Part shown: in pieces, positions 3 to 59,867 of the stretch
How the letters are laid out: each line of letters begins with the position of its first letter
How positions within the stretch are numbered: the stretch's first letter is position 1
IMG/VR virus record: IMGVR_UViG_3300021426_000065
Coordinates: 103,173 to 167,172 of that record
DNA: 64,000 nucleotides
Reading direction: 5' to 3' (one strand)
DNA from: a virus
Taxonomy: Duplodnaviria > Heunggongvirae > Uroviricota > Caudoviricetes
Position numbers and translations under genes: made by a program
The notes under the pieces: generated by a model
Database searches by the model: none
What the model saw: the letters and a program-made list of their open reading frames with translations, nothing else
What the model was told of the DNA's origin: nothing

Positions 3-1361
3 GATGGAATTACTATTGGTGGATAGGTTGTATATTTTAGCCGTTCTGCCTCTTTACGCGCGGTTAATGCGAGTGTTTTGTTTAAGAATATTAAAGTTGA
101 AGAAGGAGATGCGGAAACCCCGTGGTGTCCAGCCGATAGTGAAATGAATATTGATAGAACTATTATTGAAGATAGTAGTGGATATAATCATAATGGTACT
201 ATTGTTGGCTCTGCTGTTTCCGCGGCCGATACCGCGCGATATGGTGTAAGCACGCATATAGATGGCGCTGGTGTTATTACCGCGACCTCTCCTGGCGCAG
301 ATATTCGTACATTAAGTTGTTGGGTAAAAACAACAAAAAATAAATCTACTTCTCAAATGCTTGTTGCTGATTCTGGTTCAAATATGTGTATTTCTTTTTA
401 TAGTGGAACAATTATTGGTGTGTTTGGTACTACACGAAGCACTGGCAGTAAATGCACGCTTGGGGCGTCTTATAAAGAAAATGATTGGAATCATATTGTA
501 GTCGTAAAAACAAGTGATGATGGTAAGCGTGACATCTACTGCAATGGAGAGAAGCTTACTCCTGCGGCGGATGATTATTGGAGCGCAACAGCCGGATTCT
601 TTGTTGGAAATAGAAATGGCACGGTTAGTGGAAATACCCCGTTCTTTGGATATATATCTGATGTTCGTGCGTATTGTACTCAATTACTTGACACAGACAT
701 AAAATAGTTGTATAATGTTGGTATGAAGGTGGATAAAAAATAGAATATTCACGCTTTTGAGTTTAATGAAACCGCGGGGAGAACATAGTTTTTAAAAACT
801 GGCGTAATAAAAAGTGCGCAAGTCGCAGATAATTTATTATTTGACAATAAAGCACATATTGGGAAGCATAGCTATGAAAATATATTGCCAAATAATGTAA
901 ATATAGTAACGACAAAAAATGGGCATATAACTAATCAAAACACACTTGCATCTATTCCCGCGGCAAAAATACAATCGCTCGCTGGAAAAACATTACGTTT
1001 TACTTATGATGTTAAAGCAGATGGTACTAGAAGTTCTGCTGAAAATAATCAAACAGCATGGAATTATATTAGATATGGAATACATGCTACTTTTTAGTAT
1101 ACAAATGCATCTGGTACTACTGGTACATCGTATCCATTTGCTGGTGATTTAGCATATAGCGGCGCGGCAAAACGTAGCACACAAACATGGACAGTTCCAG
1201 CCGGATATTAGTCATATGGGGCGTTAGGCTTTTCCATATAGACTTTTGATAAACCGGCATCTACAAATAATGAAACATGGTTTATATAGAATGTTAGATT
1301 AGAAGTTATAGATAATACAATTGATGGGTACATTACTGGTACTCAACTTATAGAAAAATAA
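3..1361 (+). CDS. Tail-fibre-like structural protein, 5' truncated by the window edge. The frame is open through several in-frame TAG codons and ends at TAA 1359-1361.
   Basis: One frame stays open across track ORFs 78..707 and 885..1097 and is interrupted only by TAG. Gly/Thr/Ser-rich fibre-like composition. A Shine-Dalgarno site and the ATG of the next gene follow. Confidence 0.55.
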
Positions 1362-1373
1362 GGAGGGAAATCA

Positions 1374-4300: not shown

Positions 4301-4646
4301 AGATTTGGATAATGGTTTGGTTATATAGACAGAATAGCGCTTAATGCCTGGCGCACAAGTAGTATCAGATACCTTCGGATTTGCTATTGGCGAAAATGAT
4401 GAGTGTAAAACTCCGCTCGCGGTTTCTGGTAGGGTACTTGTTTATCCATATCGTAATCGTTATGAATATCACGCTGGTATGGCAGTATGTTCTGCGCCGA
4501 ACGGTACAGTAGATATAATGACGCGAGAAGAAATAAAAGAATACCCAGATGCGATTGTTGGCATTGTTAGTGAGATACCACAATATGAAGAATGGGGCGA
4601 AAAACCAGTCAAAGTTGATGGGCGTATTTGGATTAAAGTAAAATAA
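1374..4646 (+). CDS. Large tail fibre or receptor-binding protein of about 1090 codons with at least 14 in-frame TAG sense codons.
   Basis: AAGGAGGG Shine-Dalgarno then ATG at 1374. Track ORFs 1659..2213, 2262..2483 and 4344..4646 share one frame and are separated only by TAG. Repetitive G/T/S-rich fibre motifs. Ends at TAA. Confidence 0.6.
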
Positions 4647-4715
4647 TTAAAATATTCAATTTATTTTATTATATACATACATATAAATAGGACAATAGTC
4701 CGAGGAGGTAATATT

Positions 4716-5066
4716 ATGTTAAAATTAGTTCTAAATGAAGATTTCGTGCATGGCATTGATATTGATAACTATAATCAATCTACCGTATTAAGCATTACTA
4801 ACTATTCCACCCATAGTACCAGTATTACTTTTGTAACTCGTGCAGATTCAATTGCTAACATTATGGCTTTTGAGAATACGCCAATTACTAGCCTACGTAT
4901 TCGTGATGACGCGGGAGAAACACTACTTAATCTAAATCTAGCAGATAAAAATGTATATGTACTAAATTATAACACTAACATTTATAATGGTGGACAGAAC
5001 ACAAGCGTTAGTCTTGGACAGGTTGCCGTGGCGGCGCCAGAAAATAGTGAAGGAGAAGGAGAATAA
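4716..5066 (+). CDS. Hypothetical protein.
   Basis: ORF with Shine-Dalgarno, TAA stop, followed by a terminator hairpin. Confidence 0.5.
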   Translation: MLKLVLNEDFVHGIDIDNYNQSTVLSITNYSTHSTSITFVTRADSIANIMAFENTPITSLRIRDDAGETLLNLNLADKNVYVLNYNTNIYNGGQNTSVSLGQVAVAAPENSEGEGE

Positions 5067-5083
5067 TCCTTCTCCTCTTTTTA
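5051..5083 (+). terminator. Rho-independent terminator hairpin.
   Basis: aggagaagga / tccttctcct stem followed by a T-run. Confidence 0.5.
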
Positions 5084-5095
5084 AGGGGTGATATT

Positions 5096-5299
5096 ATGGC
5101 GCATAAAATGACAAAACGTGGTAATATAGATAATGTAATTACTTACGAACATTTCTGTGATACCAAAGCCGACATGGCGGATATAGACCCAAATGAAATT
5201 AATCTTGGTTCTGTCTGCGTGGTTCTTGCTGATGAATCCGCAGGTGGAGCCTTAAACTTTTATCTTGCAAAATCTGATAAGACTTGGGTTCAAGCGTAA
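5096..5299 (+). CDS. Hypothetical protein.
   Basis: ORF with Shine-Dalgarno GGGGTGA, TAA stop. Confidence 0.45.
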   Translation: MAHKMTKRGNIDNVITYEHFCDTKADMADIDPNEINLGSVCVVLADESAGGALNFYLAKSDKTWVQA

Positions 5300-5311
5300 G
5301 GAGGGAATAGT

Positions 5312-7300
5312 ATGGATATAGTTGATATTATTCTCGCGCGCGCAAAGTCTTTTACAGGAGAAACCGCCACTCTAACTCGTCAAGCCCAGCAAGCCATGAC
5401 GGATGCTAATAATATTGTAGATACACTAAGCGATATTCAAGCCGACACAGAGGCCGCGAATACCGCCGCGAATGAGGCGTCTGCCAAAGCAACGGCAGCA
5501 GCCGCAGAGTTTGATGAAATGAAAGCAGACCTTGAAGCCGCGGCAGCCACATTAGTAGACGACCGCGTAGAATAGGCCATGGGCACAGCAACCGACGATA
5601 TTGCGGACTTACAAACCAGAACAACCGCATTAGAAAATCAAATTGAAAACGCCGGTGGCACCATTACTTTTACCGATAATAATACGGCCGCGGCAAAAAT
5701 TAAGCAAGCAAACGTAACCAAAAACGGCGCTACCACAACCTATGTTGTAGAAAAGAATTATACAACCTATGGCGATAATGAGGACGGCTCTATGACACAG
5801 AAGGCGATTAAAAATTACGTCTCTGATGTTAAATCTAATTTAGAAAGTCAAATCCGTACTTCTGGCGGTGGTGGAAACACTAACCTTGGTGATGATAATG
5901 CGGGCCAAGTGGTTATTGTTGGCCCAGATGGCAATATCACCGCTGGCGATACAACAGAATAGTCTATAATTGAAGCACTAATTCGCGCGGGCGTATACCA
6001 AGCGAAAAACGCAGTTGGCACTTCGATAGACTATGAAAATAAAAACATTGGCCGCACATAGGAAGCGACCGCGAATACAGATTTTAATGATTATATCATG
6101 TATAATGGCCGCAGACGTTGTAATGTAAATGATGACGGCATAATAACTGCGTTTTATGGCGATGCTAATTATAAAGAAGATGGCAGTAATGGACAAGTTA
6201 TGGTATATCAACCTAAGTTCTATTATCAGCGCATTCCAATTAATACTACTAATTCTATTGTCGGTAAAATTATTCGTAAAGAATCTTTAATTATTTCTGC
6301 GACCAAACAATCAGGCTTCAAACTACATCCCGCGTTTATAGATGAAAATGGCAACGAACTTGAATATATACTTATTTCTGCCTATGAAGGATGCGCTTAT
6401 GACACTTCCGCAGGAAGTTATATTAAAGATGACGCGGCTGGTATTGATTTCGCGGCCGATAAGTTATCTTCTATCGCCGGAGCTAAACCACTAAGCGGTG
6501 AAAAAAATAATTTAACAATCGCAAACGCAGAAAAATTAGCGCAAAACCGCGGAGACAGATGGCATATCACAAGCATTAAAGCATGTAGTGTAGACCAAAT
6601 GTTGGCTCTTGTAGAATATGGTACCTTTAATATACAAAACGCAATCGAGAACGGCGTTAGTTATCTTGAAAACTCATATACTGTAAATCGCGCTTGCATT
6701 ACTGGTTCTACCGCGGAGTTAGGCAATAGTTCTGGTGCGGCAACACGTAGTAGTAACCTTGTTAATGGCACAACAAACACATATGGAGAAGCAGGTAAAC
6801 GTTCCATTTCTTACCGTGGCGAAGAAAATCCATTCGGTAATATTTGGAAGTTCATCGGTGATGTCAATATCTTTGGTGACGGCAATGTGTAGGGCGGCGT
6901 TCCATATATTTGTAAAAATTATAATTACTCTGATTCTATTACTGCCGACTATGAAAGTGTTGGTATTAGCTTACCAAATACAAGCGATTGGATTTCTGGT
7001 ATGGGCTATGGCGATGAAAAATATGATTGGCTATTTATCCCAGCCGAAGCATCAAATGCAAATAGCGCTACGCCGATAAGCGACTATATTTGGATAACAA
7101 AAAATGTCAATAAGATTCAATCTATGGCGTTTGGCGGCGACTGGCTATTCACACAACGCAATGGCATGTTCTTCTATGCTTGCGACCGCGATATGGATTA
7201 CGCCGCGTCCACATTTGGCGCACGTCTTGTTTATATACCACTTAAAGATAGTGTCCATGATACTAACTATGCCCTATGGCGTAACAAAGTGGGAGGTTGA
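5312..7300 (+). CDS. Coiled-coil tail-fibre-like structural protein, about 660 codons, read through 4 in-frame TAG codons.
   Basis: Track ORFs 5312..5575, 5579..5962, 6098..6892 and 7001..7300 share one frame and are joined only across TAG. Shine-Dalgarno GGAGGG before 5312. Ends at TGA. Confidence 0.55.
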
Positions 7301-9836: not shown

Positions 9837-9912
9837 AGCAGACAGGACAAACGGCTAAGTCACTAGGCTCATAACCTAAGAGGACCGAGTTCAACTCTCG
9901 GGTCTGCCACCA
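9837..9912 (+). tRNA. tRNA with anticodon CAU (Met, or Ile via lysidine), with an A1-C72 mismatch and encoded CCA.
   Basis: Anticodon stem ctagg/cctaa (four pairs plus a C27·A43 mismatch), loop ctCATaa. T arm ccgag-ttcaact-ctcgg. Acceptor (a)gcagac/gtctgc(c) then A CCA. Confidence 0.65.
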
Positions 9913-10169: not shown

Positions 10170-11010
10170 GGGTGATCACCTAAAAGCACAGAGTCGAGAG
10201 GCAACGGCTCTCTAAAGAAACACCGAGTCCATTCCATGAAATGGTAAAACTGGATGCATCCCCAGTATAACAAGATGCCGCGTTTATAAGCCGCAAGTTC
10301 GCAATAGCTTATACAGTTGCCCACTCTGTAAAAGGAGGCGCGCCGATAGACCGCAAGTTAAATAGTCTATGGATTGGGGCAATGACAGGACTTTGTGGCA
10401 AACTAAGCCCCACAACAAAAGGGATGGACCACAACGCTGAGGAAAACTGCGTAACAAAAGCGGTAGACATCCTAACAAGAATGTTACGACGTATAGGACA
10501 AGGCTCCACCAAAATAGATGGGAAGCGCTATACAGGTGCCCAAATGACGCAGTAGAAGTTTGAAGGCTTCTAGCCGTATAGCTAACGGTGTGTAACGTAA
10601 GAATGGGTTAAATGGAGTTTGAAGAACAGCCAACGCGCAAACTGAAAGGATAGGTATACGTCCATGTTGCTCGGCGCATTATAAAAGAGGAGCAAAATAA
10701 TGAGCTTTCAGCTTCCAGTAAACTGAATACAGTGGTTTTCAGGCTGAAAAGTACTCGGTAGAGCTTACGAGTATAAATAAATGTGAGTCCGCTCATAGAA
10801 GCGGGTTGCGACGAGCAACCAACGTCCACCTAGGGGACGTAATGATTTCTAGGCCGTGGTGAAAAACGGGAAGGCTAAGGAAAATGGATTGGAAGTCCTG
10901 GGCAGCTCTTAGGGTAGCTCCTTAAACTGAAAAACCAAAGCAGTCTCATCTACTGCTCCCGTCACATAGTGTAGCCACTCAGTTGCGGCTGAGTTATCAA
11001 ACCGCATTAT

Positions 11011-11082
11011 GCTCGGTTGGATTAACGGTTAGATCGGCGGCCCTTCAAGCCACAGACATGAGTTCAACTCTCATACCGAGTA
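11011..11082 (+). tRNA. tRNA-Glu, anticodon UUC. Position 33 is C.
   Basis: Acceptor gctcggt/accgagt. Loop ccTTCaa. T arm atgag-ttcaact-ctcat. Confidence 0.6.
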
Positions 11083-11146
11083 CTCTCACCTGAGCAAAAG
11101 CGGTGACTAAACCGATGCGCGGTTGACTGACCTTAAAGTCTTTAAT

Positions 11147-11223
11147 GGTCTCGTAGTGTAATTGGTTAACATCTCCCGCTGTCACCGGGAAGATTACGGA
11201 ATCGTACTCCGTCGAGACCGCCA
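11147..11223 (+). tRNA. tRNA-Asp, anticodon GUC, with a non-canonical T loop (atcgtac) and encoded CCA.
   Basis: Perfect acceptor ggtctcg/cgagacc. Anticodon stem cccg/cggg, loop ctGTCac. G73 then CCA. Confidence 0.65.
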
Positions 11224-11274
11224 ATTATATAACCTCCGCGGTCAGCCCGTTAGACCTAAAATGGCGGGGCACTT

Positions 11275-11347
11275 ACCCGGTTAGCTTAACTGGATAGAGC
11301 ACGCGGCTACGAACCGCGAGACAGGAGTTCAAGTCTTCTACTGGGTA
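11275..11347 (+). tRNA. tRNA-Arg, anticodon ACG.
   Basis: Acceptor acccggt/actgggt. Anticodon stem cgcgg/ccgcg, loop ctACGaa. T loop ttcaagt. Confidence 0.7.
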
Positions 11348-11521
11348 TTGTCGCTCCTTGCGCAGTTCAGAGCGACTCATAAATAGTTAACTGGCACCGC
11401 TAACATGGATTCGTGGGGACGGTCAACTACCACCGACGTGATGAATCATTATTGAGAACACGGTATGTGGCTTAGTGGAAAGCGGTATATAAAAAAGCAA
11501 AGCAACGGTCTCCACCAATAT

Positions 11522-11550
11522 TTGACTTTTACATAAAATTATGATATAAT
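11522..11550 (+). promoter_or_regulatory. Sigma-70 consensus promoter, family copy.
   Basis: TTGACT 11522-11527, TATAAT 11545-11550, 17-nt spacer. Confidence 0.55.
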
Positions 11551-11569
11551 ATTTATGTAAAAAGGAAAT

Positions 11570-11642
11570 GCCCGCTTAGCTCAGTCGGTAGAGCAATTGG
11601 CTGTTAACCAATGTGTCGGGAGTTCAAGTCTCTCAGCGGGCG
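11570..11642 (+). tRNA. tRNA-Asn, anticodon GUU.
   Basis: Acceptor gcccgct/agcgggc. D arm tagctcagtcggtagagca. Loop ctGTTaa. T loop ttcaagt. Confidence 0.75.
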
Positions 11643-11767
11643 CTCTTTTAGGCGAGTTAACTGCAAAATCTTTATAGGATGATTGAAAATGCTATTTATT
11701 TTCATAGAAAGTTCAAATCTTTCACACTTCCTCGCCTAGTATTTTAAATTAAAATGAGGTAATTAAC

Positions 11768-12307
11768 ATGAGTGATGCAAGGCTAAAGATTCTTCCCCCT
11801 TGGACAATCGTTATTCGTAAGTTTGAGGCCCTATTTGATGGCGATCCTCAGATTGCATGCAATTGTAATTTTAGTGGCTCTGCTCCTTCTATTGTATTTG
11901 CTTGCAATAATGGTGATAAGGTCGCGGCCCTACTATAGATTCTACCAGAAGAAGTTAGTTTCGGTAATATTAAACTAAAGGTAATGGTAGATGGCACCCC
12001 AAGTAATCGTGCTTTTACTAGCAAGGTAGAACTATTTGATACTGCTTTCAAGGGCAATCCCGCGTATGCGTATTCTGTTTGCCCCGCGGAAGAAGGGTAT
12101 CAGTGGATTGGAACTACATATGTTGTATTCAATAATTGCGTAGTTCAGTTCGCGGCGGATAATCTAAATGATTGTCATGGTATTATTAGCACCCTATATG
12201 AAACCATTGCTGATGAACTATTGACTGGTCCAGCGACAGAAGGTGTATTTTATAATACCAATGTTGAGCGCGCTAATCTTGGCAAGCCCCTTGGAGAGTG
12301 GCCGTAA
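11768..12307 (+). CDS. Hypothetical protein of about 179 aa with one in-frame TAG.
   Basis: Shine-Dalgarno TGAGGT then ATG 11768, in the same frame as track ORF 11984..12307 across a TAG. TAA stop. Confidence 0.5.
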
Positions 12308-12319
12308 TAGGAGAGTTAG

Positions 12320-12481
12320 ATGATAGTTGAATTAACAAATCATTGGTCTGAAATGAGTGGTCAATACGAAATTGAAGGAGTAGAAGAACATAATGATTAT
12401 TTTCGATTCTACTTCGGCAATGGTAAATGGTCAAAAGAATATAATATACCAACGTATACTTATAGAATTATACAAAAATGA
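12320..12481 (+). CDS. Small hypothetical protein.
   Basis: ORF with Shine-Dalgarno GGAGAG, TAA stop. Confidence 0.35.
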   Translation: MIVELTNHWSEMSGQYEIEGVEEHNDYFRFYFGNGKWSKEYNIPTYTYRIIQK

Positions 12482-12530
12482 ATTGTAATTCTTCTAACAT
12501 TTTTTGTTAAAACTAATTTATAGACCCGTC

Positions 12531-12638
12531 AGCAAATTACTTCTTTTTTTGACTGTTAATCAAAAGGTTATTGGTTCGAGTCCAATCGTATTCTACGGAA
12601 TATGTAGCTCAATTGGCAGAGCATTATAAGCGGGTCTA
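12531..12638 (+). ncRNA. Candidate Y-RNA-like (YrlA-like) RNA with a permuted tRNA-like module. The order is terminal stem, anticodon-like hairpin, T arm, loop-closed acceptor-like stem, D arm, terminal stem.
   Basis: The 9-bp terminal helix pairs tagacccgt (12531-12539) with gcgggtcta (12630-12638). Hairpin tttga-ctgttaa-tcaaa. T arm attgg-ttcgagt-ccaat. A 7-bp stem cgtattc/gaatatg is closed by tacg. D arm gctc-aattggca-gagc carries the GG needed for a T-loop contact. Confidence 0.4.
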
Positions 12639-12646
12639 GTTTTTAT

Positions 12647-12721
12647 CGCAACGTGACGCAGTTGGTTTAGCGTACCATTCTGATAAAATGGAAGTCCCTG
12701 GTCCGAGTCCAGGCGTTGCGA
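12647..12721 (+). tRNA. tRNA-Ile, anticodon GAU.
   Basis: Acceptor cgcaacg/cgttgcg. Anticodon stem ccatt/aatgg, loop ctGATaa. T arm cctgg-tccgagt-ccagg. Confidence 0.65.
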
Positions 12722-12900
12722 TTACCCGAGCGACGGGGCGCCGGTCGTAAAGTTCCCATGGCTACTTGTCCCGACAAGCGGTAGGACCGAAGTTGAGGAT
12801 TGGAACATTGAAAAGCACTGACAATATGCGTAGACCCGCACTATGGGGCGGCGAGCGAAGTGCCTAGCATAGGCACATTAACTGCAATGTAATTAGGGTA
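12722..12900 (+). ncRNA. Unassigned GC-rich structured RNA block. It contains the hairpin gtgcc-tagcata-ggcac and a second copy of the tagacccg motif.
   Basis: No credible ORF. High GC. Hairpins. Confidence 0.25.
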
Positions 12901-13105
12901 ACAGATGAGAATTGTGTTTAATGAGCACGATTCGTTGGATATTATTATATCCACCGACCAGTATGTCGAAATAACTACCATGGGCTGGCTGAGAGGCCCT
13001 GGTCCATCTTGGCATGTGGAAGATATCTACACTCATGAGGCCATCGCTTATCCAGCGATACATAAAAGGGAGATCGTCTGGCCACTCGACCGGTAGTGGC
13101 AATTC

Positions 13106-13176
13106 GCACCATTGGTGTAGCGGTAACATCTTTGCCTTCCAAGCAAATGTGGCCAGTTCAAATCTGGTATGGTGCT
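13106..13176 (+). tRNA. tRNA-Gly, anticodon UCC.
   Basis: Perfect acceptor gcaccat/atggtgc. Anticodon stem tttgc/gcaaa, loop ctTCCaa. T loop ttcaaat. Confidence 0.75.
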
Positions 13177-13180
13177 TTAA

Positions 13181-13296
13181 AGACGCATCAGCAATTATTC
13201 TTTTGCAAAGGGAGCCCGTCAAGTGTTGGTGCAACTCCAACCCACCGCAACATGCGGTGGTCGCTCAATAGTAGAAGCGCGGTTATAAGTGCGTCT
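13181..13296 (+). ncRNA. Second candidate Y-RNA-like element. Terminal pairing gacgca/tgcgtc encloses a T-arm-like hairpin (gttgg-tgcaact-ccaac) and a loop-closed 7-bp stem (ccaccgc-aacat-gcggtgg).
   Basis: Same module order as 12531-12638. No ORF. Sits between tRNA-Gly and tRNA-Leu. Confidence 0.3.
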
Positions 13297-13304
13297 TGTT
13301 TTAT

Positions 13305-14116
13305 GCCGCTGTGGTGGAATGGCAGACACAGCAGACTTATATAATTTGAGCACTTGGATACGAAAGTTCCAATGTGAATGTTCCCTAATTCGGCGAAAGT
13401 CCAAATTGGATTACGCCGAGCTAAATGGGATTACGCTAAAAAAATTTTTTCCAGAGAGTAAATTAAAATGGTTTCCTTGTAATGTAGTCACTCTTATAAT
13501 GAGGTGATGAATATGCGAAATGATATTATTGAACGCAAAGAAGAAATTCTCCAATGGATTAATGAAGGACAATCAAAAGCGAATATGGCGCGCGAACTTA
13601 GGTGTAAGCCTGAAACTTTAAATCGTTATCTTAATCTTTGGAATATAACTTACGATGGAAATCAAAGTGGTAAAGGTACTACAAAAATCAGTAATCGTGG
13701 TATGAATTTAATGGAATATCTTGCTGAAAGTAAAGATATTCAAACTAATAAAATTCGCCGCAAATTACTTGAAGAAGGATATAAAGAATATAAATGTGAA
13801 TGTTGCGGGAATACCGAATGGATGGGTAAGCCCATTCCGCTTGAAGTTCATCATAAAGATGGAAACCGCAATAACAATACATTAGAAAATTTTGAACTTC
13901 TTTGTCCTAATTGCCATGCTTTTACTGATAGTTATCGTGGAAAAAATAGCGCAATCTCTAAATGTGTAGAGACTATATAGGAACCACCTAAGTCATAAGA
14001 TATGGTGAAAACATAGTCCAGACTACAACGCAGTAATGCGGCCATAGTAATATGGAGTAGTAAGAAAATCTGCTGCTCTTATGAGCGTGCCGGTTCAAGT
14101 CCGGCCAGCGGCACCA
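13305..14116 (+). tRNA. tRNA-Leu, anticodon UAA, class II. The gene is interrupted between U34 and A35 by a 726-nt group I intron (13339-14064) that carries an HNH homing endonuclease ORF. Exon 1 is 13305-13338 and exon 2 is 14065-14116, ending in CCA.
   Basis: Exon 1 has acceptor gccgctg, a 3-bp D stem and gcaga-ctt. Exon 2 is aaaa-tctgc, then a variable-arm hairpin gctc-ttat-gagc, T arm gccgg-ttcaagt-ccggc, cagcggc, A73, CCA. Acceptor and anticodon stems pair perfectly across the intron. The intron starts atataatttgagc and ends gtagtaaG. It has P/Q/R/S-like elements (aattcggcg, cgccgagc, ccagagagtaaat, catagtccagac). The 5' end resembles the cyanobacterial tRNA-Leu intron (AAAUAAUUGAGCC, recalled from memory). 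Confidence 0.6.
13504..13998 (+). CDS. HNH homing endonuclease encoded inside the tRNA-Leu intron. The frame reads through TAG at 13978 to TAA 13996-13998.
   Basis: Motif CECCGN...EVHHKDGNRNNNTLENFELLCPNCH. Promoter-like TATAAT and Shine-Dalgarno GAGGTGA upstream. Confidence 0.75.
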
Positions 14117-14119
14117 AAT

Positions 14120-14193
14120 GTCCTCGTAACAGAATTGGCATATGTACCGCGCTCAAAACGCGGGTTCTGTGGGTCCGACTCCCACCGAGGATA
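14120..14193 (+). tRNA. tRNA with anticodon CAA (nominally Leu) but a class I short variable arm.
   Basis: Acceptor gtcctcg/cgaggat. Perfect anticodon stem ccgcg/cgcgg, loop ctCAAaa. T arm gtggg-tccgact-cccac. A73. Confidence 0.55.
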
Positions 14194-14194
14194 C

Positions 14195-14268
14195 GTCCAG
14201 TTGGCGCAATTGGCAGACGCGCTACGTTTAGGCCGTAGTTTTTGAAGGTTCAAATCCTTTACTGGACA
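14195..14268 (+). tRNA. tRNA with anticodon UAG (nominally Leu, reading CUA) but a class I short variable arm.
   Basis: Perfect acceptor gtccagt/actggac. Anticodon stem ctacg/cgtag, loop ttTAGgc. T loop ttcaaat. A73. Confidence 0.55.
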
Positions 14269-14275
14269 TTAGTAT

Positions 14276-14304
14276 TTGACTTTTCTCCAAAATTATTATA
14301 TAAT
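14276..14304 (+). promoter_or_regulatory. Sigma-70 consensus promoter, family copy.
   Basis: TTGACT 14276-14281, TATAAT 14299-14304, 17-nt spacer. Confidence 0.55.
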
Positions 14305-14330
14305 ATATATGTAAGAAAGGGGCGAATGGA

Positions 14331-14510
14331 ATGAAATTACTTTTTCTTAATAAAGAAGAAAAGAAAGCATTGATTAAATTATTAGTTCCTTTGGCTACTT
14401 CTTCAAAAGGTAATTATGAATTAACAACTATTTTAGAAAAATTGGATTGGAAAGCATATGAATATGCTTTTAACCATCCTAAAGAAGATAAGTATTTGAC
14501 TTTTCCTTAA
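14331..14510 (+). CDS. Small hypothetical protein of 59 aa. The next promoter copy is embedded in its 3' end.
   Basis: Shine-Dalgarno AAAGGGG then ATG. The ORF ends ...KYLTFP, overlapping TTGACTTTTCC. Confidence 0.35.
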   Translation: MKLLFLNKEEKKALIKLLVPLATSSKGNYELTTILEKLDWKAYEYAFNHPKEDKYLTFP

Positions 14511-14537
14511 AATTATGTTATAATAAATATATAATGA

Positions 14538-14806
14538 AGCCCGCTAGCATAATGGTTAATGCACCGGTCTCTAGTCTAAATTGGAGCCTTATATAGTAAT
14601 ATATAAGTGAAAACGCCGCTAATTCGGTGAAGGCTTAACTGCTAATACCGAGCAAGGATTTTTAATCTATGTGTAGAGACTTTATACGGCGCATCCTTAT
14701 AGGATGAAGATAAAGTCCGGACCACGATGCGAAAGCAACGCGTGTGAAGAAAACCGTAACACCTCTGAAGTGGGTTATCTCCGTTCGATCCGGAGGCGGG
14801 CCGCCA
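14538..14806 (+). tRNA. Candidate amber-suppressor tRNA, anticodon CUA, class II, G73, CCA encoded. The gene is split in the anticodon loop after U35 by a 177-nt group I-like intron (14573-14749). Exon 1 is 14538-14572 and exon 2 is 14750-14806.
   Basis: Exon 1 is agcccgc-ta-gcat-aatggtta-atgc-a-ccggt-ctCT. Exon 2 is Aaa-accgt, a 21-nt variable arm (acct/gggt stem), T arm ctccg-ttcgatc-cggag, gcgggcc, G, CCA. Six of seven acceptor pairs form. The spliced loop ctCTAaa matches the A37-A38 pattern of most tRNAs in the island. The intron starts agtctaaattggagcc with a GGAG internal guide for the ..CUCU exon end. It ends gtgtgaaG, the same ..aaG/aaaa junction as the tRNA-Leu intron, and carries P/Q/R/S-like segments (aattcgg, ccgagcaagg, gtagagact, aagataaagtccggacc). 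Confidence 0.5.
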
Positions 14807-14874
14807 TCTTTAAGCGACCATTACAGCAATATTTTATTTATAACTGAAAATTATAAAATATGGTCGCGTTTTTT

Positions 14875-14947
14875 CGGGGTATAGCGCAGTTGGTAGCGCG
14901 CCAGTTTTGGGAACTGGATGCCGCAAGTTCGAGCCTTGCTACTCCGA
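14875..14947 (+). tRNA. tRNA-Pro, anticodon UGG.
   Basis: Acceptor cggggta/tactccg with one G-U pair. Anticodon stem ccagt/actgg, loop ttTGGga. T loop ttcgagc. Confidence 0.65.
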
Positions 14948-14970
14948 CTTATAAAAAGAAAGGAATCAAT

Positions 14971-15336
14971 ATGACAGCGCAAGAAGTAGTTTGGTTTATT
15001 AATCACAAATACGGTGAACAGGCGTATATTGTAGAAACAAACGACCAAATCTTACTATTTACGAAAGAATCCAAATGGATAATCAATAAAAATGATTATT
15101 CTAAGTTTCATTGCTATACTTTATTTCATTCTAATAATACGCAAGGAAATGGATTCCATGTACAAATGCGCGGCAATCATATTGATTTTTTAGTTTATCA
15201 AGCTATCATGCATGATAATAAAGAAATTTTTTCTAATCGTGAAACCTGGGATAATTTTCAAAATGCTTGGGAATTATTTCTTCTTGGACGAAAAATTGAA
15301 GCAGAAATTAATGCGTGGGAATGGATGACAAAATAA
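14971..15336 (+). CDS. Hypothetical protein of about 121 aa.
   Basis: Shine-Dalgarno AAAGGAA then ATG 14971. Track ORF 14860.. starts inside tRNA-Pro, so the downstream start is preferred. Confidence 0.45.
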   Translation: MTAQEVVWFINHKYGEQAYIVETNDQILLFTKESKWIINKNDYSKFHCYTLFHSNNTQGNGFHVQMRGNHIDFLVYQAIMHDNKEIFSNRETWDNFQNAWELFLLGRKIEAEINAWEWMTK

Positions 15337-15355
15337 GATTGGAGCATTAGAATAT

Positions 15356-15562
15356 ATGAATGATGAAAAATATATAGATTCTATTTGTATCAATGGTTAG
15401 AAATATAAAATTAAAGCGTCATTAATTGAAGCTTATCCTATTAACTGTAAAAATTGTGGCGCGTTGTTTGAATTAAAATATGGGTCTGGACGATGTGATT
15501 ATTGCGGCACGTATTATACTACTGAGTTTAAAATAGTAGAAAAACCATTCAAGGAGAATTAA
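15356..15562 (+). CDS. Zinc-ribbon protein (CxxC...CxxC) with one in-frame TAG.
   Basis: ATG 15356. The frame is open through TAG to TAA. Confidence 0.4.
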
Positions 15563-15581
15563 CCGCGGAAGGTAAAATGAG

Positions 15582-15902
15582 ATGATTGAAGGAGTAGTTG
15601 TTTTATCAGAATGGACAAGCATGTCCGCACTGGGTTGTCTTATGCTAACTATCGGTTTAACTTTTTTTATTCTATTCGCTTGGATTGCAATGTTCAATAA
15701 AGGAGTTATTAGTAACAATTGGTTCTGTGTATTTGTTATTGGGTCTATTATTGGAATTGGCTTATTCGTCGGTTCATTTTTCATGCCCAAGGACCATGGG
15801 TACAAAATAACTTTAACTGATGATGCTAACTTTTCAGAAATAGTAAAGCATTATGAAATTATTAGTACCGATAACTTGATATTAAAAGTAAGAGAGCGGT
15901 GA
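15582..15902 (+). CDS. Small membrane protein with two transmembrane helices.
   Basis: Track ORF with hydrophobic stretches, TGA stop. Confidence 0.45.
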   Translation: MIEGVVVLSEWTSMSALGCLMLTIGLTFFILFAWIAMFNKGVISNNWFCVFVIGSIIGIGLFVGSFFMPKDHGYKITLTDDANFSEIVKHYEIISTDNLILKVRER

Positions 15903-15908
15903 AGTGGG

Positions 15909-16112
15909 ATGAATGAAACAGGCTTGAAAAAGACTCGAAAGTATTATCGTCTATGCGGAATGTGCGGAAAAAGGCATGAACAGAAACAAATGAAAAGAAC
16001 GACACATAGCAGAAATGGATGGCTTTGTAAAGATTGCTATGAATCAGATGAATATTTAGATTTTAATACCAATACCGGAGACCCAATTGGATGGGATTCT
16101 AATGAGTGGTAA
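15909..16112 (+). CDS. C4 zinc-finger protein.
   Basis: CGMCGK...CKDCY. Confidence 0.45.
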   Translation: MNETGLKKTRKYYRLCGMCGKRHEQKQMKRTTHSRNGWLCKDCYESDEYLDFNTNTGDPIGWDSNEW

Positions 16113-16151
16113 AAGAATAAAATGAAATTATATACTTCCTATTGGGCATAG

Positions 16152-16574
16152 GTGCGCAATTTTCCAAAAAATCTTATCGGTCTAAATACTACTGTTTTTC
16201 CGCCGAAGTGGCGCCCGCTTGGACAAGACGGCCGCGGCATATGGGTAATTGATTGCCCACCATTAAAGCCTGGCGCGGAATGCGATGGACTATGTAATGG
16301 GAAATGCGCCCCTAAACATCCACAAAATTGTTCTTTTCTACAAGTATATTCAAATCAATTAGATAAAATTGATTTTAAACTTTTCATGTCTAAATTATTT
16401 AGCTTACATGAACGTATCGCATACGATAATGATATAAAAGACTATGATTTCGCATTTATTGTATTTGAAAAATATGACAACCCTTGTAGTGAGCGATGGC
16501 CAATACAAGAGTGGTTTAGAAAAAATGGAGCGACAATAGAAGAATGGACCAAAGAGAATATAATAAACAACTAA
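16152..16574 (+). CDS. Cys-rich hypothetical protein.
   Basis: Track ORF, TAA stop. Confidence 0.45.
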   Translation: MRNFPKNLIGLNTTVFPPKWRPLGQDGRGIWVIDCPPLKPGAECDGLCNGKCAPKHPQNCSFLQVYSNQLDKIDFKLFMSKLFSLHERIAYDNDIKDYDFAFIVFEKYDNPCSERWPIQEWFRKNGATIEEWTKENIINN

Positions 16575-16597
16575 TTGAAAAATATCCATTTCTAATG

Positions 16598-16992
16598 CCA
16601 TATAATATATGGACTGGCGAGCCAATTGAAGATTATGATTATGAATATATATGGCTTGATGATATGCCAGACGGCTGGCGCAACGCATTTGGCTTACAAA
16701 TGTGCGAAGAATTAAAGCAGGCCCTAAACAAGCAGCCATAGGTTTTTGCAGATACCTTTAAAATTATTCAAATTAAAGAAAAGTTTGGCGGTCTACGCTT
16801 CTATACTAATTGGACAACACCAGAGATAAATGAAGTAATTAGTAAATATGAAAATATGAGTTATTCAATTTGTATTCGTTGTGGTGCGCCCGCGAAGTGG
16901 ATTACAAAAGGATGGATTTCTCCTTTCTGTGATAAGTGTAAGCCCGATGAAAATTGCGTAGAAATTGAAAAGTTCTACGAAGAAAATACTTG
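16598..16992 (+). CDS. Hypothetical protein with one in-frame TAG (at 16739) and C-terminal CxxC pairs.
   Basis: Track ORF 16544..16741 continues in frame past TAG to TGA 16990-16992. The start is placed at the first ATG beyond the overlap with the upstream gene. Confidence 0.4.
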
Positions 16993-17048
16993 ACTTATAG
17001 TAAAAATTATAGTATAATTATTATACAAAGAGGAAAGGAGCCAAGAAA

Positions 17049-17405
17049 ATGCGTAATTACAGTATGAAGTCTAAAAATCGTAGGAATCATCAGCGGTGGC
17101 TAAATCAGTATTGTAAAATGGTAAATAAGTATGTCGCGGAAGATCCACTCTGGCTCGGTCGCTTTGTAATGGAACAAGTCAGAACTAGAATGGAATGGTT
17201 TGAGGACGGTAGTGGCGGCCTCATGTATTGCGAGCTTCGTTTCCGCGATAAGAAAACCGGAAAGACTAAAATCTGGGATACCGATTGCCTTGAACTAGAA
17301 TATAAGTCTGGCTTTAAAATGAATGATTTTATTGTTAGTGATTGTGCTGTTTGGGAAAATGAACGCCCATATGAAGAAGTGAGGGATTATAGAAATGTCA
17401 AGTGA
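17049..17405 (+). CDS. Hypothetical protein.
   Basis: Promoter copy at 16990, Shine-Dalgarno GGAAAGGAG, TGA stop. Confidence 0.5.
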   Translation: MRNYSMKSKNRRNHQRWLNQYCKMVNKYVAEDPLWLGRFVMEQVRTRMEWFEDGSGGLMYCELRFRDKKTGKTKIWDTDCLELEYKSGFKMNDFIVSDCAVWENERPYEEVRDYRNVK

Positions 17406-17598
17406 AGAAAATAACGGACAGATTGAGTTTACTTTTTGGCCCGGCGGCGATAATCCGCATGAGCGACGAACAGAACTAAGCTTTGATATTCCAAGCGATG
17501 TCGGTATTGATGAACTATGTGATTGCTTTACTTCGTTCCTTGTCGCACTTGGGTATCATCCAAATACTATTAATAAGTATATTCCCGGGAGCTATTAA
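17395..17598 (+). CDS. Hypothetical protein.
   Basis: ORF overlapping the upstream stop, TAA stop. Confidence 0.4.
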   Translation: MSSEENNGQIEFTFWPGGDNPHERRTELSFDIPSDVGIDELCDCFTSFLVALGYHPNTINKYIPGSY

Positions 17599-17607
17599 GC
17601 TCTCTAT

Positions 17608-17679
17608 GGGACATTAGTTCAACGGTTAGAACGGTGGTCTTATAAACCATTAACGATAGTCCGACTCTATCATGTCCTA
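17608..17679 (+). tRNA. tRNA-Ile, anticodon UAU.
   Basis: Acceptor gggacat/atgtcct. Anticodon stem gtggt/accat, loop ctTATaa. T arm gatag-tccgact-ctatc. Confidence 0.6.
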
Positions 17680-17850
17680 CCACAATAGCGGCTAATCTTT
17701 GCGAAGATTAGGAAGGATGAAAACCACTTCCGCCAAACTATTGGCAGCAGCAAACACCTATGCGTAGGTAAAGGCAAATAGTCGCGACGTTGGTAATTAG
17801 ACCCGAAGCAAGAGGCCGAGTAGTATCCGCAACTCTTCCGCCGCGATTGT
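17680..17850 (+). ncRNA. Unassigned structured RNA block containing the hairpins ctaatctt-tgcg-aagattag and ggaag...cttcc, plus a third copy of the tagacccg motif.
   Basis: No ORF. GC-rich hairpins between two tRNAs. Confidence 0.25.
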
Positions 17851-17932
17851 GCCCGTTTAACTCAACGGACAGAGTATCTGACTTCTAATCAGAAAATATA
17901 GGTTCAATTCCTATAACGGGTATTTAAGTAGA
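17851..17932 (+). tRNA. tRNA-Arg, anticodon UCU.
   Basis: Acceptor gcccgtt/aacgggt. Anticodon stem tctga/tcaga, loop ctTCTaa. T loop ttcaatt. Confidence 0.7.
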
Positions 17933-17989
17933 AGGCGCGGCAGTACAGCGCCCCGAGAGGACAAAACCACACAGTATTCTACTTTTTAT

Positions 17990-18060
17990 GCGCCTGTAAC
18001 ATAGTGGTAGTGTTGTAGACTTTTAATCTATAAGCGCGGTTTCGATTACCGCCAGGCGCA
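17990..18060 (+). tRNA. tRNA-Lys, anticodon UUU.
   Basis: Perfect acceptor gcgcctg/caggcgc. Loop ctTTTaa. T arm gcggt-ttcgatt-accgc. Confidence 0.65.
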
Positions 18061-18138
18061 TTATGAGGTAGCGTTAGAATAGCTAACTAACGAGATAAAG
18101 ATGCTCCTACATCGGCTCAATTTTATATAATCATAGGA

Positions 18139-18801
18139 GTGATTAATATGATAGGATATATTTATAAAATTACTAATGATATAAATAATAAGGTTTATAT
18201 TGGAAAAACTTTAAAATCTATAACAAAGCGATTTGCAGAGCATATTCATGAAAGTACTCGTAAAAGAAGCGAGAAACGACCATTGTACATGGCAATGAAT
18301 AAATATGGAATTGAACATTTTTTCATAGAATTGATAGAAGAAGTTGATTCTTCCATATTAGAAGAACGTGAAATTTATTGGATTCAACAATACAACAGTT
18401 ATCATTATGGTTATAATGCTACTTATGGTGGAGATGGCAAAATATTATATGATGATAATATAAGACAAGAAATGATAAATGAATATAAAGATGGACAATT
18501 AATAATAGAAATTGCTACTAAATACAATTGTGATGTAAGTATTGTTCATAGTGCAATAGTCTCCGCGGGATTAGACGTAAATAGCAATAAAAATAAACGT
18601 CTTATGATTGGCATAAGTGCTTATAAAGATGGAAAATTAATTCAATCATTTGAATCACATAAACTTGCTGGACAATGGCTGTATACTAATGGATATACAC
18701 AGTCTCAAAATTGGGATAATATATCAGCAACCCTTGGCCGTGCAAGAGATAATCCTAATAGAACTGCTTATGGATTTATATGGAAAACAATAGGGGTATA
18801 A
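18139..18801 (+). CDS. GIY-YIG homing endonuclease, free-standing within the tRNA island.
   Basis: Motif GYIYKITNDINNKVYIGKT, then ...Y.G.K, C-terminal DNA-binding region. -10 TATAAT and Shine-Dalgarno upstream. Confidence 0.75.
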   Translation: MINMIGYIYKITNDINNKVYIGKTLKSITKRFAEHIHESTRKRSEKRPLYMAMNKYGIEHFFIELIEEVDSSILEEREIYWIQQYNSYHYGYNATYGGDGKILYDDNIRQEMINEYKDGQLIIEIATKYNCDVSIVHSAIVSAGLDVNSNKNKRLMIGISAYKDGKLIQSFESHKLAGQWLYTNGYTQSQNWDNISATLGRARDNPNRTAYGFIWKTIGV

Positions 18802-18867
18802 GATAATTAGCAGTCGGGGAATCTCCAAAATTCTCAGTTCCTAGGCAGAATAGGATACCCCTGCCAA

Positions 18868-18941
18868 GCGCGTCCAATTCTCGTCGGCCGGGAGCGGGCC
18901 TGCAAAGCCCCTGTTAGTTGGTTCAACTCCAACTGGACGCT
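18868..18941 (+). tRNA. tRNA-Cys, anticodon GCA.
   Basis: Acceptor gcgtcca/tggacgc. Loop ctGCAaa. T arm gttgg-ttcaact-ccaac. Confidence 0.6.
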
Positions 18942-18961
18942 TCAACAAAGGAGAAATAATT

Positions 18962-59836: not shown

Positions 59837-59867
59837 TTCTCCCAGGTCATTTTAGGAGGGATGACAT

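What the first reader, a model, noticed from the sequence alone, without database searches (positions are those of the whole stretch)
13305..14116. tRNA-Leu(UAA) split at U34/A35 by a group I intron carrying an HNH homing endonuclease
Exon 1 (13305-13338) and exon 2 (14065-14116) rebuild a perfect class II tRNA-Leu(UAA) with A73 and CCA. The insertion site and the intron 5' end (AUAUAAUUUGAGC compared with Anabaena AAAUAAUUGAGCC, from memory) mirror the ancient cyanobacterial and plastid tRNA-Leu intron. The intron carries a 164-codon HNH ORF (13504-13998) that itself reads through a TAG. This intron is known from cyanobacteria and plastids, so finding it in a phage tRNA island with a homing endonuclease ORF added is unusual.
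Basis: partly seen in the sequence, partly recalled or inferred. Interest (0 to 1): 0.8.

Follow-up and report, generated by a model that had tools for sequence, protein, structure and literature searches.

The report
Mobile self-splicing intron in phage tRNA-Leu
A phage tRNA-Leu(UAA) gene is interrupted in its anticodon by a group I (self-splicing type) intron carrying an HNH homing endonuclease gene, a near-identical sister phage has the same gene without the intron, and this kind of element proves common in uncultured phages though hardly described there.

Summary
Exons 13305-13338 and 14065-14116 join into a perfect 86-nt class II tRNA-Leu(UAA). The 726-nt insert (13339-14064) has the full fold of a group I intron: P1 with a U.G pair at the 5' splice site, P2-P9, and a terminal G. 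Across 22 relatives, 92% of cells form standard pairs and 41 of 66 pairs carry compensatory changes. A covariance model built without the window scores its 3' domain at 127.6 bits.

The HNH gene (13513-13980) sits in the loop of P6, and its last codons overlap P6', P7 and P3'. Sister phage contigs (97-98% identical over 9 kb) carry exactly exon1+exon2 with no intron. This fixes the boundaries and shows presence/absence polymorphism.

The intron belongs to the Azoarcus-like tRNA intron family. I found it in about 49 of 75 IMG/VR phage loci that share one core motif, and in many bacterial genomes.

It is a new member of a known kind. HNH-bearing tRNA-Leu(UAA) introns were reported in Bacteroidota in 2026, and 'enigmatic' phage tRNA introns in 2019.

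The phage reads TAG as Gln, so read-through of the TAG at the end of the ORF is plausible. Its CUA suppressor tRNA (14538-14806) carries a second, 177-nt group I intron.

The parts
13305..13338 (+). tRNA-Leu(UAA) exon 1 (positions 1-34, ends with U34)
   Evidence: ARAGORN -i; identical to the 5' part of the intron-less gene in L217/L218
13339..14064 (+). Group I intron, 726 nt, Azoarcus-like (IC3-type) core
   Evidence: Manual fold mapped onto 22 relatives: 92.2% of cells paired against 33-39% when partners are slid; 41/66 pairs with compensatory change. ORF-less homologues pass the Rfam Intron_gpI gathering score (L067 62.8, L057 71.5 bits). Absent from sister contigs L217/L218
13336..13350 (+). 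P1: exon CUU + intron A (13336-13339) paired with guide sequence UGAG (13347-13350). U13338.G13348 is the splice-site wobble pair. UUU 13345-13347 can pair with exon-2 AAA (P10)
   Evidence: Sequence; pair counts for helix 1, 95.5% paired, U.G in 20/22
13351..13376 (+). P2 hairpin with GAAA tetraloop (13362-13365)
   Evidence: 9 of 10 pairs with compensatory changes
13380..13384 (+). P3 5' strand GUUCC (pairs with 13980-13984 GGAAC)
   Evidence: 5/5 pairs covary, 100% paired. The window has CC/GG where most relatives have GG/CC
13389..13420 (+). P4 (13389-13395/13414-13420), J4/5 AAA, P5 (13399-13403/13407-13411)
   Evidence: partial Rfam Intron_gpI hit 13390-13473 (17.2 bits)
13427..13437 (+). 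P6 5' strand GGGAUUACGCU (pairs with 13948-13958)
   Evidence: 10 of 11 pairs in the window; 8/8 tested P6 pairs covary. Homology to ORF-less relatives stops at 13426 and resumes at 13959
13513..13980 (+). HNH homing endonuclease gene in the loop of P6 (155 aa; Shine-Dalgarno GAGGTGA at 13501-13507). Alternative end is TAA 13996-13998 if TAG is decoded as Gln
   Evidence: dN/dS 0.13-0.16 against intron-borne orthologues. Identical protein on at least 12 metagenome contigs
13948..13958 (+). P6 3' strand, inside the 3' end of the ORF
13969..13975 (+). P7 5' strand (G-AGACUA with bulged A; guanosine-binding helix), inside the ORF. The stop codon TAG 13978-13980 touches P3'
13980..13984 (+). P3 3' strand GGAAC
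13985..14007 (+). P8 with an 11-nt tetraloop-receptor motif (CCUAAG...UAUGG), the expected dock for the L2 GAAA loop
   Evidence: Sequence. The docking is inferred by analogy with the Azoarcus intron (my own knowledge)
14014..14019 (+). P7 3' strand UAGUCC
14022..14064 (+). P9 (14022-14026/14057-14061) enclosing two GUAA-capped hairpins (14029-14040, 14042-14055); terminal G at 14064
   Evidence: P9a 4/4 and P9b 5/5 pairs covary. Model R1 gives 127.6 bits, E 3e-31, over 13958-14066
14065..14116 (+). tRNA-Leu(UAA) exon 2 (A35 to the CCA end)

Best explanation
This is a mobile group I intron in a phage tRNA gene. The tRNA array is transcribed, and the pre-tRNA-Leu(UAA) carries a 726-nt ribozyme between U34 and A35.

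Proposed splicing: the RNA folds into P1-P9. A free guanosine attacks after U13338, which is held in a U.G pair by the internal guide UGAG. The freed exon then attacks after the terminal G14064, joining the exons. This restores the anticodon loop CUUAAAA and yields an ordinary tRNA-Leu(UAA).

Proposed homing: the loop of P6 holds an HNH endonuclease gene. Its product is expected to nick or cut intron-less tRNA-Leu(UAA) alleles of co-infecting relatives near the insertion site, so that recombinational repair copies the intron in. The end of the ORF overlaps P6', P7 and P3', so translation and ribozyme folding on one RNA molecule should exclude each other.

Shown here: the tRNA, the fold and its covariation, membership of a large tRNA-intron family, an intact endonuclease gene under purifying selection, decayed copies in relatives, and an exact empty-site allele in a sister phage.

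Inferred, not shown: catalytic splicing, endonuclease activity, and its target.
For: - tRNA and boundaries.
- Fold: 66 proposed pairs, 92.2% of cells paired against 33-39% in slid controls, and 41 pairs with double changes; 0 of 500 shuffles reach the observed values.
- Model R1, built from 18 relatives without the window: 127.6 bits, E 3e-31, at 13958-14066.
- ORF-less homologues (L067, L069, L057) reach the Rfam Intron_gpI gathering score. They align with the window on both sides of the P6 insert.
- The intron is the only large difference between the window and L217/L218 over 9 kb.
- HNH gene: phrog_10822, E 1.7e-28. It is about 50% identical to annotated HNH homing endonucleases that lie between tRNA genes in T5-like and jumbo phages. 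dN/dS is 0.13-0.16.
- Fragmented HNH ORFs in related introns (L012/L050, L039, L075, L059), and HNH ORFs placed either in P6 or near the 5' end, fit a gain-and-decay cycle.
- The element is 97-100% conserved on at least 10 contigs from several samples.
Against: - Rfam's own Intron_gpI model gives only a 17.2-bit partial hit in the window, as expected when a 500-nt ORF splits the model.
- P7 and P8 are invariant in my alignment because the relatives were selected by a motif covering them, so they give no covariation evidence.
- No sigma-70-like promoter precedes the ORF.
- Pfam HNH scores are just below the curated cut-offs.
- No splicing or cleavage data exist.
- The empty-site allele cannot distinguish intron gain from precise loss.
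Confidence: 0.88

Rival explanations
1. The intron still splices, but its HNH gene no longer drives homing into tRNA-Leu. The gene would be a recently captured 'tRNA-array' endonuclease that cuts elsewhere (for example between tRNA genes, as its free-standing relatives presumably do), or it would be on its way to decay.
For: The closest annotated homologues are free-standing genes between tRNA genes, not intron-borne ones. Several related introns hold broken HNH ORFs. The intron-less sister allele persists in the same phage population. That allele differs at 5 positions of the variable arm, 12-21 nt downstream of the insertion site, which could make it a poor target.
Against: The ORF is intact, identical on at least 12 contigs, and under purifying selection against other intron-borne copies. 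Intron-borne HNH genes of the same family recur in about two dozen related tRNA-Leu introns.
Confidence: 0.15
2. The gene is a dead tRNA-Leu, disrupted by a mobile insertion that can no longer be removed from the RNA.
For: No direct splicing evidence. Standard tRNA finders skip the gene.
Against: Every core helix is intact and matches family covariation. The splice-site U.G pair and the terminal G are present. Both exons are undamaged; in the variable arm, the only differences from the sister allele are compensatory. There is no other tRNA-Leu(UAA) gene among the window's tRNA genes. The element is conserved across samples.
Confidence: 0.04
3. The intron is kept because it benefits the phage. 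It might time or gate tRNA maturation, or shield the anticodon region of the gene or precursor from host nucleases.
For: A second group I intron sits in the phage's CUA suppressor tRNA. Suppressor tRNAs of two other TAG-recoded phage lineages carry introns at the same site. A 2026 survey reports tRNA introns in 77% of jumbo phages that use alternative codes (PMC13037316).
Against: The intron-less allele in a 97-98% identical phage shows the intron is dispensable. The presence of a homing endonuclease and the decay pattern are what a selfish element predicts. Nothing here tests a benefit.
Confidence: 0.1

Closest known systems
HNH-encoding group I intron in tRNA-Leu(UAA) of Bacteroidota (survey of bacterial tRNA introns, mSystems 2026, PMC13011429)
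   Same: Same gene, same 34/35 insertion site, same class of endonuclease, intron longer than 500 nt. My genome scan also found 681-688-nt versions (L147 from a Prevotellaceae MAG; L186, whose source record I did not check) ending in GTAGTAAG/GTAGCAAG like the phage group.
   Different: Those were reported from bacterial chromosomes; this one lies in a phage tRNA array.
Azoarcus tRNA-Ile(CAU) and other proteobacterial tRNA group I introns (subgroup IC3)
   Same: Core strings AAUUCGGCGAAA, ACGCCGAGC, GUGUAGAGACUA and CACCUAAG. L2 GAAA loop plus an 11-nt receptor in P8. Small P2-P9 architecture without P5abc. The Azoarcus sequence is recalled from memory. Near-identical tRNA(CAU) introns are in L006 and L023.
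   Different: Different tRNA and splice position. The Azoarcus intron is 205 nt and has no ORF. Here P9 carries two extra GUAA hairpins and P6 carries a gene.
Cyanobacterial and plastid tRNA-Leu(UAA) intron (Anabaena/Nostoc)
   Same: Identical insertion site U34/A35 and a P1 built on CUU|A/UGAG. Positive control for self-splicing in PMC13011429.
   Different: No ORF. Its P7/P8 sequences, as I recall them, do not match the motif shared by the phage family. Not tested directly here.
Synechocystis tRNA-fMet intron with I-Ssp6803I (Bonocora and Shub 2001, cited in PMC3984707)
   Same: A tRNA group I intron that carries its own homing endonuclease targeting the anticodon region.
   Different: PD-(D/E)XK enzyme, different tRNA and site, bacterial host.
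Phage T4 td intron with I-TevI; SPO1/SP82 introns with HNH I-HmuI/II
   Same: Phage group I introns with the endonuclease gene looped out of a peripheral helix (P6 in td). The HNH enzymes nick intron-less alleles. ORF and ribozyme overlap requires controlled translation (PMC3984707).
   Different: Those lie in protein-coding genes and belong to subgroup IA. The 2014 review states that all phage introns then known were in protein genes.
'Enigmatic' tRNA introns of Lak megaphages (Devoto 2019, PMC6784885) and of alternative-code jumbo phages (PMC13037316)
   Same: Introns in phage tRNA genes of TAG-recoded phages. The Lak-B1 locus L199 matches my group I 3'-domain model at 64.1 bits.
   Different: In the text I read, those introns were not classified as group I, and no endonuclease was described.

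Membership tests
Group I intron (Rfam RF00028) | 5' splice site after a U held in a U.G wobble pair within P1, formed with an internal guide sequence | tested here: met
   U13338.G13348 within CUUA/UGAG. U.G in 20 of 22 relatives. Boundary fixed by the empty-site allele.
Group I intron (Rfam RF00028) | Intron ends in G (omega G) | tested here: met
   G14064 precedes exon 2.
Group I intron (Rfam RF00028) | Conserved core: P3-P8 and P4-P6 domains with the P3/P7 pseudoknot | tested here: met
   All helices found. P3 5/5, P6 8/8 and P2 9/10 pairs covary; 92.2% paired overall. P7 and P8 are invariant, so uninformative.
Group I intron (Rfam RF00028) | Score at or above the Rfam gathering threshold (50 bits) | tested here: inconclusive
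   The window gives only 17.2 bits over model positions 60-139, because the ORF splits the RNA. ORF-less homologues L067 (62.8), L057 (71.5) and L069 (50.3) pass. My own model without the window gives 127.6 bits for the 3' domain.
Group I intron (Rfam RF00028) | Guanosine-dependent self-splicing | not testable with these tools
   Needs an in vitro transcription and splicing assay.
tRNA-Leu(UAA) anticodon-loop intron (34/35) | Insertion between U34 and A35 of a tRNA-Leu(UAA) | tested here: met
Subgroup IC3 | Assignment by subgroup-specific covariance models or diagnostic peripheral elements | not tested
   No subgroup models were available. The resemblance to Azoarcus (L2 GAAA, P8 receptor, no P5abc) rests on the sequence and my memory of that intron.
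HNH homing endonuclease | HNH (beta-beta-alpha-metal) motif with zinc-binding cysteines | tested here: met
   The motif reads CECCG...EVHHKDGNRNNNTLENFELLCPNCH. PHROG HNH families score E 1.7e-28 and 2.8e-25. Pfam HNH 20.9 bits against a 21.4 cut-off, and HNH_3 24.2 against 24.8, both just under. The motif aligns with McrA (weak).
HNH homing endonuclease | Gene resides in a self-splicing intron, and intron-less alleles exist in the population | tested here: met
   L217/L218.
HNH homing endonuclease | Site-specific cleavage of the intron-less allele | not testable with these tools
   Needs protein expression and a cleavage assay.

The most novel reading that the evidence does not exclude
[quoted passage not shown] This phage carries one in tRNA-Leu(UAA) and one in the CUA suppressor tRNA that implements TAG=Gln. 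Suppressor tRNAs of Lak megaphage B1 and crAss-like phage cr115_1 are split at the same 35/36 site. If splicing rate sets when the suppressor matures, a ribozyme would time the switch of genetic code and hence late-gene expression. Phages would also be the reservoir from which endonuclease-bearing tRNA introns reach gut and rumen bacteria.
Probability: 0.15. Interest if true: 0.8.

Novelty: new member of a known kind. Interest (0 to 1): 0.55.

Why it matters
A 2014 review stated that every phage group I intron then known sat in a protein-coding gene, despite the many phage tRNA genes. A 2019 paper called the tRNA introns of Lak phages 'enigmatic'.

This window gives a clean, fully dissected case of a phage tRNA intron. 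The evidence comprises the ribozyme fold, the endonuclease gene, and both the filled and empty alleles within one phage population. One core motif alone recovers about 49 such tRNA-Leu introns in IMG/VR.

Practical consequences:
- Standard tRNA finders miss these genes, so phage tRNA repertoires are under-counted. That includes the suppressor tRNAs used to infer genetic codes.
- The filled/empty allele pair offers a ready-made system for testing homing into a tRNA gene.

Tried and rejected
- Rfam at gathering thresholds on the whole window found no Intron_gpI. The E-value scan gave only a partial hit for the main intron. This is explained by the ORF and does not count against an intron.
- Megablast of 13 kb, and blastn of the locus, against 50,697 GenBank phages found no close relative. 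A relaxed search found only uncultured phages, so I found no cultured isolate with this intron.
- The PDB sequence search gave nothing significant for the HNH protein.
- The promoter scan found no sigma-70-like promoter in front of the ORF.
- A hairpin that might hide the Shine-Dalgarno sequence was considered. I did not pursue it, because L003 is too similar to test conservation.
I reversed this after finding long TAG-containing genes and Gln codons at the homologous sites of relatives.
- The look-up of the 158-aa GTG-start protein found nothing. The ATG-start forms are on record.
- The Rfam scan of the 1,052-bp insertion in the Sak4-like gene gave nothing, so that element is unclassified.
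- Literature searches found no paper that describes a group I intron with an endonuclease gene in a phage tRNA gene.

Full report
**1. The observation**

Default ARAGORN and the Rfam tRNA model do not see a gene there.

The two exons together (86 nt) fold into a perfect class II cloverleaf with loop CUUAAAA, discriminator A73 and an encoded CCA. The gene lies in a tRNA array:
- 17 genes called by ARAGORN between 8452 and 20431;
- one more seen only by Rfam, at 9837-9909;
- the two split genes described here.

The next two genes downstream are tRNA-Leu(CAA) and tRNA-Leu(UAG). There is no other tRNA-Leu(UAA) in the window.

**2. What lies between the exons**

Rfam's Intron_gpI model gives only a 17.2-bit partial match at 13390-13473. 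Reading the sequence by hand gives a complete group I fold:
- P1: exon CUU plus intron A, paired with UGAG, with U13338.G13348 at the splice site.
- P2: 13351-13376, capped by GAAA.
- P3: 13380-13384 with 13980-13984.
- P4/P5: 13389-13420.
- P6: 13427-13437 with 13948-13958.
- P7: 13969-13975 with 14014-14019, with a bulged A.
- P8: 13985-14007, containing CCUAAG...UAUGG.
- P9: 14022-14061, enclosing two GUAA hairpins.
- Terminal G at 14064.

The ORF and its leader fill the loop of P6.

**3. Testing the fold with relatives**

I searched IMG/VR for the core string GTAGAGACTA-N(5-14)-CACCTAAG and obtained 75 loci. ARAGORN with introns placed 66 intron-bearing tRNA calls over the motif (some loci give two overlapping calls). 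By my count about 49 of the 75 loci are tRNA-Leu(UAA) split at 34/35. This includes calls labelled Phe, Trp or Ser because the boundary was shifted by one base. Intron lengths run from 195 to 878 nt.

Other hosts of the motif are tRNA(CAU) genes with Azoarcus-like introns and a few further tRNAs. ORF-less members pass Rfam's own threshold: L023 74.9, L057 71.5, L041 65.1, L067 62.8, L046 50.4 and L069 50.3 bits. L067, L069, L051 and L016 align with the window over 13302-13426 and 13959-14116. The part peculiar to the window is therefore 13427-13958, which is distal P6 plus the gene.

On an alignment of 22 distinct introns with distal P6 trimmed, my 66 pairs behave as follows:
- 92.2% of cells form standard pairs, against 33-39% when the 3' partners are slid by 1-3 columns.
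- 41 pairs show changes on both sides.
- None of 500 shuffles reaches the observed values.
- P3 (5/5), P6 (8/8), P2 (9/10), P9a (4/4) and P9b (5/5) covary.

P7 and P8 never vary, but the search motif selected them, so they say nothing either way.

A covariance model of the 3' domain, built from 18 relatives without the window, scores window 13958-14066 at 127.6 bits, E 3e-31, end to end.

**4. The empty site**

Two IMG/VR contigs (L217, L218) are collinear with the window: 97.3% identity over 10599-13339 and 98.2% over 14065-20591. The only large difference is that the intron is missing.

Their tRNA-Leu(UAA) reads ...GCAGACTT|AAAATCTGCTG..., exactly exon 1 joined to exon 2. The two alleles differ only in the variable arm, by a compensatory swap (GCUC/GAGC against GUCC/GGAC). 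Both therefore look functional.

This fixes the intron boundaries independently of any fold. It also shows presence/absence polymorphism within one phage species. It does not say whether the intron was gained or precisely lost.

**5. The endonuclease gene**

The ORF runs from ATG 13513 (behind GAGGTGA) to TAG 13978-13980, giving 155 aa. It has an N-terminal helix-turn-helix and a C-terminal CxxC...HH...N...CxxCH motif.
- Pfam scores fall just under the cut-offs.
- PHROG HNH families score E 1.7e-28 and 2.8e-25.
- tblastn finds about 50% identity to annotated HNH homing endonucleases of T5-like phages and jumbo phages.

In Salmonella phage S124 and Klebsiella phage KP13-7 these homologues are free-standing genes between tRNA genes. 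The family thus already lives in tRNA arrays, which fits capture of a free-standing endonuclease by an intron.

Intron-borne orthologues in L013 and L020 are 67-72% identical in protein, with dN/dS 0.13-0.16. The same protein is encoded on at least 12 metagenome contigs from several samples, at 97-100% DNA identity.

In related introns the HNH gene lies either in P6 or near the 5' end, and several copies are fragmented. That is the pattern expected from repeated invasion and decay.

The last 11 codons of the window's ORF overlap P6', J6/7 and P7, and the stop codon touches P3'. The 2014 review notes that such overlaps require controlled translation (PMC3984707).

**6. The TAG at the end of the ORF**

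I first took it as a normal stop. The window, however, contains long reading frames that are open only if TAG is sense:
- 39731-42124: 797 codons, 16 TAGs.
- 1374-4646: 1090 codons, 14 TAGs.
- 5312-7300: 662 codons, 4 TAGs.
- 61007-61921: 4 TAGs.

The 662-aa product matches a PHROG tail protein in one stretch across three TAGs. The 61007-61921 product matches Sak4-like proteins across all four of its TAGs.

Homologues of the Sak4-like protein in standard-code relatives (L215, L216) have CAA or CAG at all four positions. A near-identical contig (L212) has TAG there. The phage therefore reads TAG as glutamine.

The HNH ORF may thus end at TAG, or six codons later at TAA 13996-13998. The TAG itself arises from the window's compensatory P3 variant (UAG-GAAC where relatives have UAC-CAAC; in L019 the frame reads on). 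The extension lies in the ribozyme core and is irrelevant to the enzyme.

**7. How it most likely works**

The pre-tRNA self-splices by the standard two-step guanosine-initiated pathway and yields tRNA-Leu(UAA). The HNH protein, translated from precursor or excised intron RNA, cuts or nicks intron-less alleles in mixed infections. Repair then copies the intron in.

The fold, the family, the gene and the two alleles are shown. Catalysis and target are inferred.

Rivals are listed separately: an endonuclease that has lost or changed its target, a dead gene, and a beneficial gating role. The dead-gene reading is poorly supported. The beneficial-role reading is untested, and the intron-less sister shows the intron is dispensable.

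**8. Comparison with what is known**

The core is of the Azoarcus type. This rests on shared strings and the L2 GAAA loop with the P8 receptor, compared against my memory of the Azoarcus sequence.

The same motif in GTDB genomes hit the scan's 120-locus limit. Those loci are mostly ORF-less tRNA-Leu(UAA) introns of Alphaproteobacteria and Acidobacteria, plus tRNA(CAU), tRNA-Arg(CCU) and Patescibacteria tRNA-Asp/Asn. All the window's nearest relatives are viral; bacterial introns share only 60-70 nt of core.

Published context:
- A 2026 survey of complete bacterial genomes found 333 tRNA group I introns in 18 phyla, with 34/35 in tRNA-Leu as a common site and an HNH gene in tRNA-Leu(UAA) introns of Bacteroidota (PMC13011429).
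- Devoto et al. 2019 reported 'enigmatic' tRNA introns in Lak megaphages as the first phage tRNA introns (PMC6784885).
- A 2026 survey found tRNA introns in 77% of jumbo phages that use alternative codes (PMC13037316).
- The 2014 review said all phage group I introns then known were in protein genes.

I found no paper that identifies a phage tRNA intron as a group I intron with a homing endonuclease. One deposited but unannotated huge-phage genome (LR756511.1) has the same arrangement: tRNA-Leu(taa) with a 700-nt intron carrying an HNH gene.

**9. Verdict**

The finding is real and correctly interpreted. It is a new member of a known kind: a known intron type at a known site with a known endonuclease class, in a host (a phage tRNA array) where it is barely documented but evidently common.

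Interest is moderate (0.55). It is raised by the filled/empty allele pair and by the context found in passing: a TAG=Gln phage whose suppressor tRNA also carries a group I intron.

Noticed in passing
window 14538-14806 (exon 1 14538-14572, intron 14573-14749, exon 2 14750-14806): A second, ORF-less group I intron of only 177 nt splits a 92-nt tRNA between U35 and A36 (loop CUCU|AAA), giving anticodon CUA, an amber suppressor. The tRNA has a long variable arm, an A1.C72 mismatch, G73 and an encoded CCA. Rfam Intron_gpI scores 49.3 bits (threshold 50), E 7.7e-12, over the full model. My model R1 scores 40.2 bits. The split gene is also present in L203, L204, L217 and L218.
   Followed up: partly
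window 78-7300, 20490-21146, 39731-42124, 58946-61921: The phage decodes TAG as glutamine. Long genes contain 4-16 in-frame TAGs. Profile matches run across the TAG positions. Standard-code relatives have CAA/CAG at all four TAG positions of the Sak4-like gene. ORF lists made with table 11 therefore break these genes into pieces.
   Followed up: yes
L199 (Prevotella phage Lak-B1, MK250020.1 about 412.0-412.35 kb) and L200 (crAss-like phage cr115_1, NC_055898.1 about 30.5-30.85 kb): Both hold a 73-nt tRNA split by an intron of about 245 or 228 nt that matches my group I 3'-domain model (64.1 and 72.5 bits). With boundaries set to U(-1) and a terminal G, the anticodon is CUA and the site is 35/36, as in the window's suppressor. 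Suppressor tRNAs of three unrelated TAG-recoded phage lineages therefore carry group I introns at one site. This may include one of the 'enigmatic' Lak introns of Devoto 2019, which I did not check against their tables.
   Followed up: partly
window 59868-61921: The Sak4-like recombinase gene is split inside its Walker A motif. Exon 1 is about 59868-59957. A 1,052-bp insertion (59958-61009) follows, holding a LAGLIDADG endonuclease ORF (60106-60948, phrog_4645, two in-frame TAGs). The rest of the gene comes after. Contig L212 (98-99% identical flanks) lacks the insertion. Rfam finds no intron model there, so its type is unresolved.
   Followed up: partly
L052 and L070 (IMG/VR): These tRNAs have loop CUU|CAAA (anticodon UCA, opal-suppressor type) and are split at 34/35 by group I introns of the same family. 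By ARAGORN's calls the introns are about 192 nt in L052 and 605 nt in L070. The L070 intron carries an ORF unrelated to the HNH family.
   Followed up: no
L201 (IAS virus NC_049978.1, gap between the two 'DNA primase' CDSs): A core related to the tRNA introns lies in the gap of a split primase gene of a crAss-like phage (20.6 bits, E 0.006 with R1). It is probably a group I intron in a protein-coding gene.
   Followed up: no
window 9837-9909: A tRNA is seen by Rfam only (42.9 bits), not by ARAGORN. It has anticodon CAU, an unusual D arm and an encoded CCA.
   Followed up: no
window 13177-13304: The 128-nt spacer between tRNA-Gly and tRNA-Leu is closed by an 8-bp long-range pairing (AAGACGCA/TGCGTCTT) and holds two internal hairpins. 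It gives a weak Twister-sister-like hit (20 bits, E 0.2). It may be a structured RNA or a tRNA remnant.
   Followed up: no
L064 2936-3535; L067 2850-2956: ROOL RNA (304.7 bits) and drum RNA (75.8 bits) lie next to the tRNA arrays of related phage contigs.
   Followed up: no
L219 943-1200: A tRNA-Asn(GUU) is split at 35/36 by a 185-nt mini-intron related to the window's second intron. The site is the one reported for Patescibacteria tRNA-Asn (PMC13011429).
   Followed up: no
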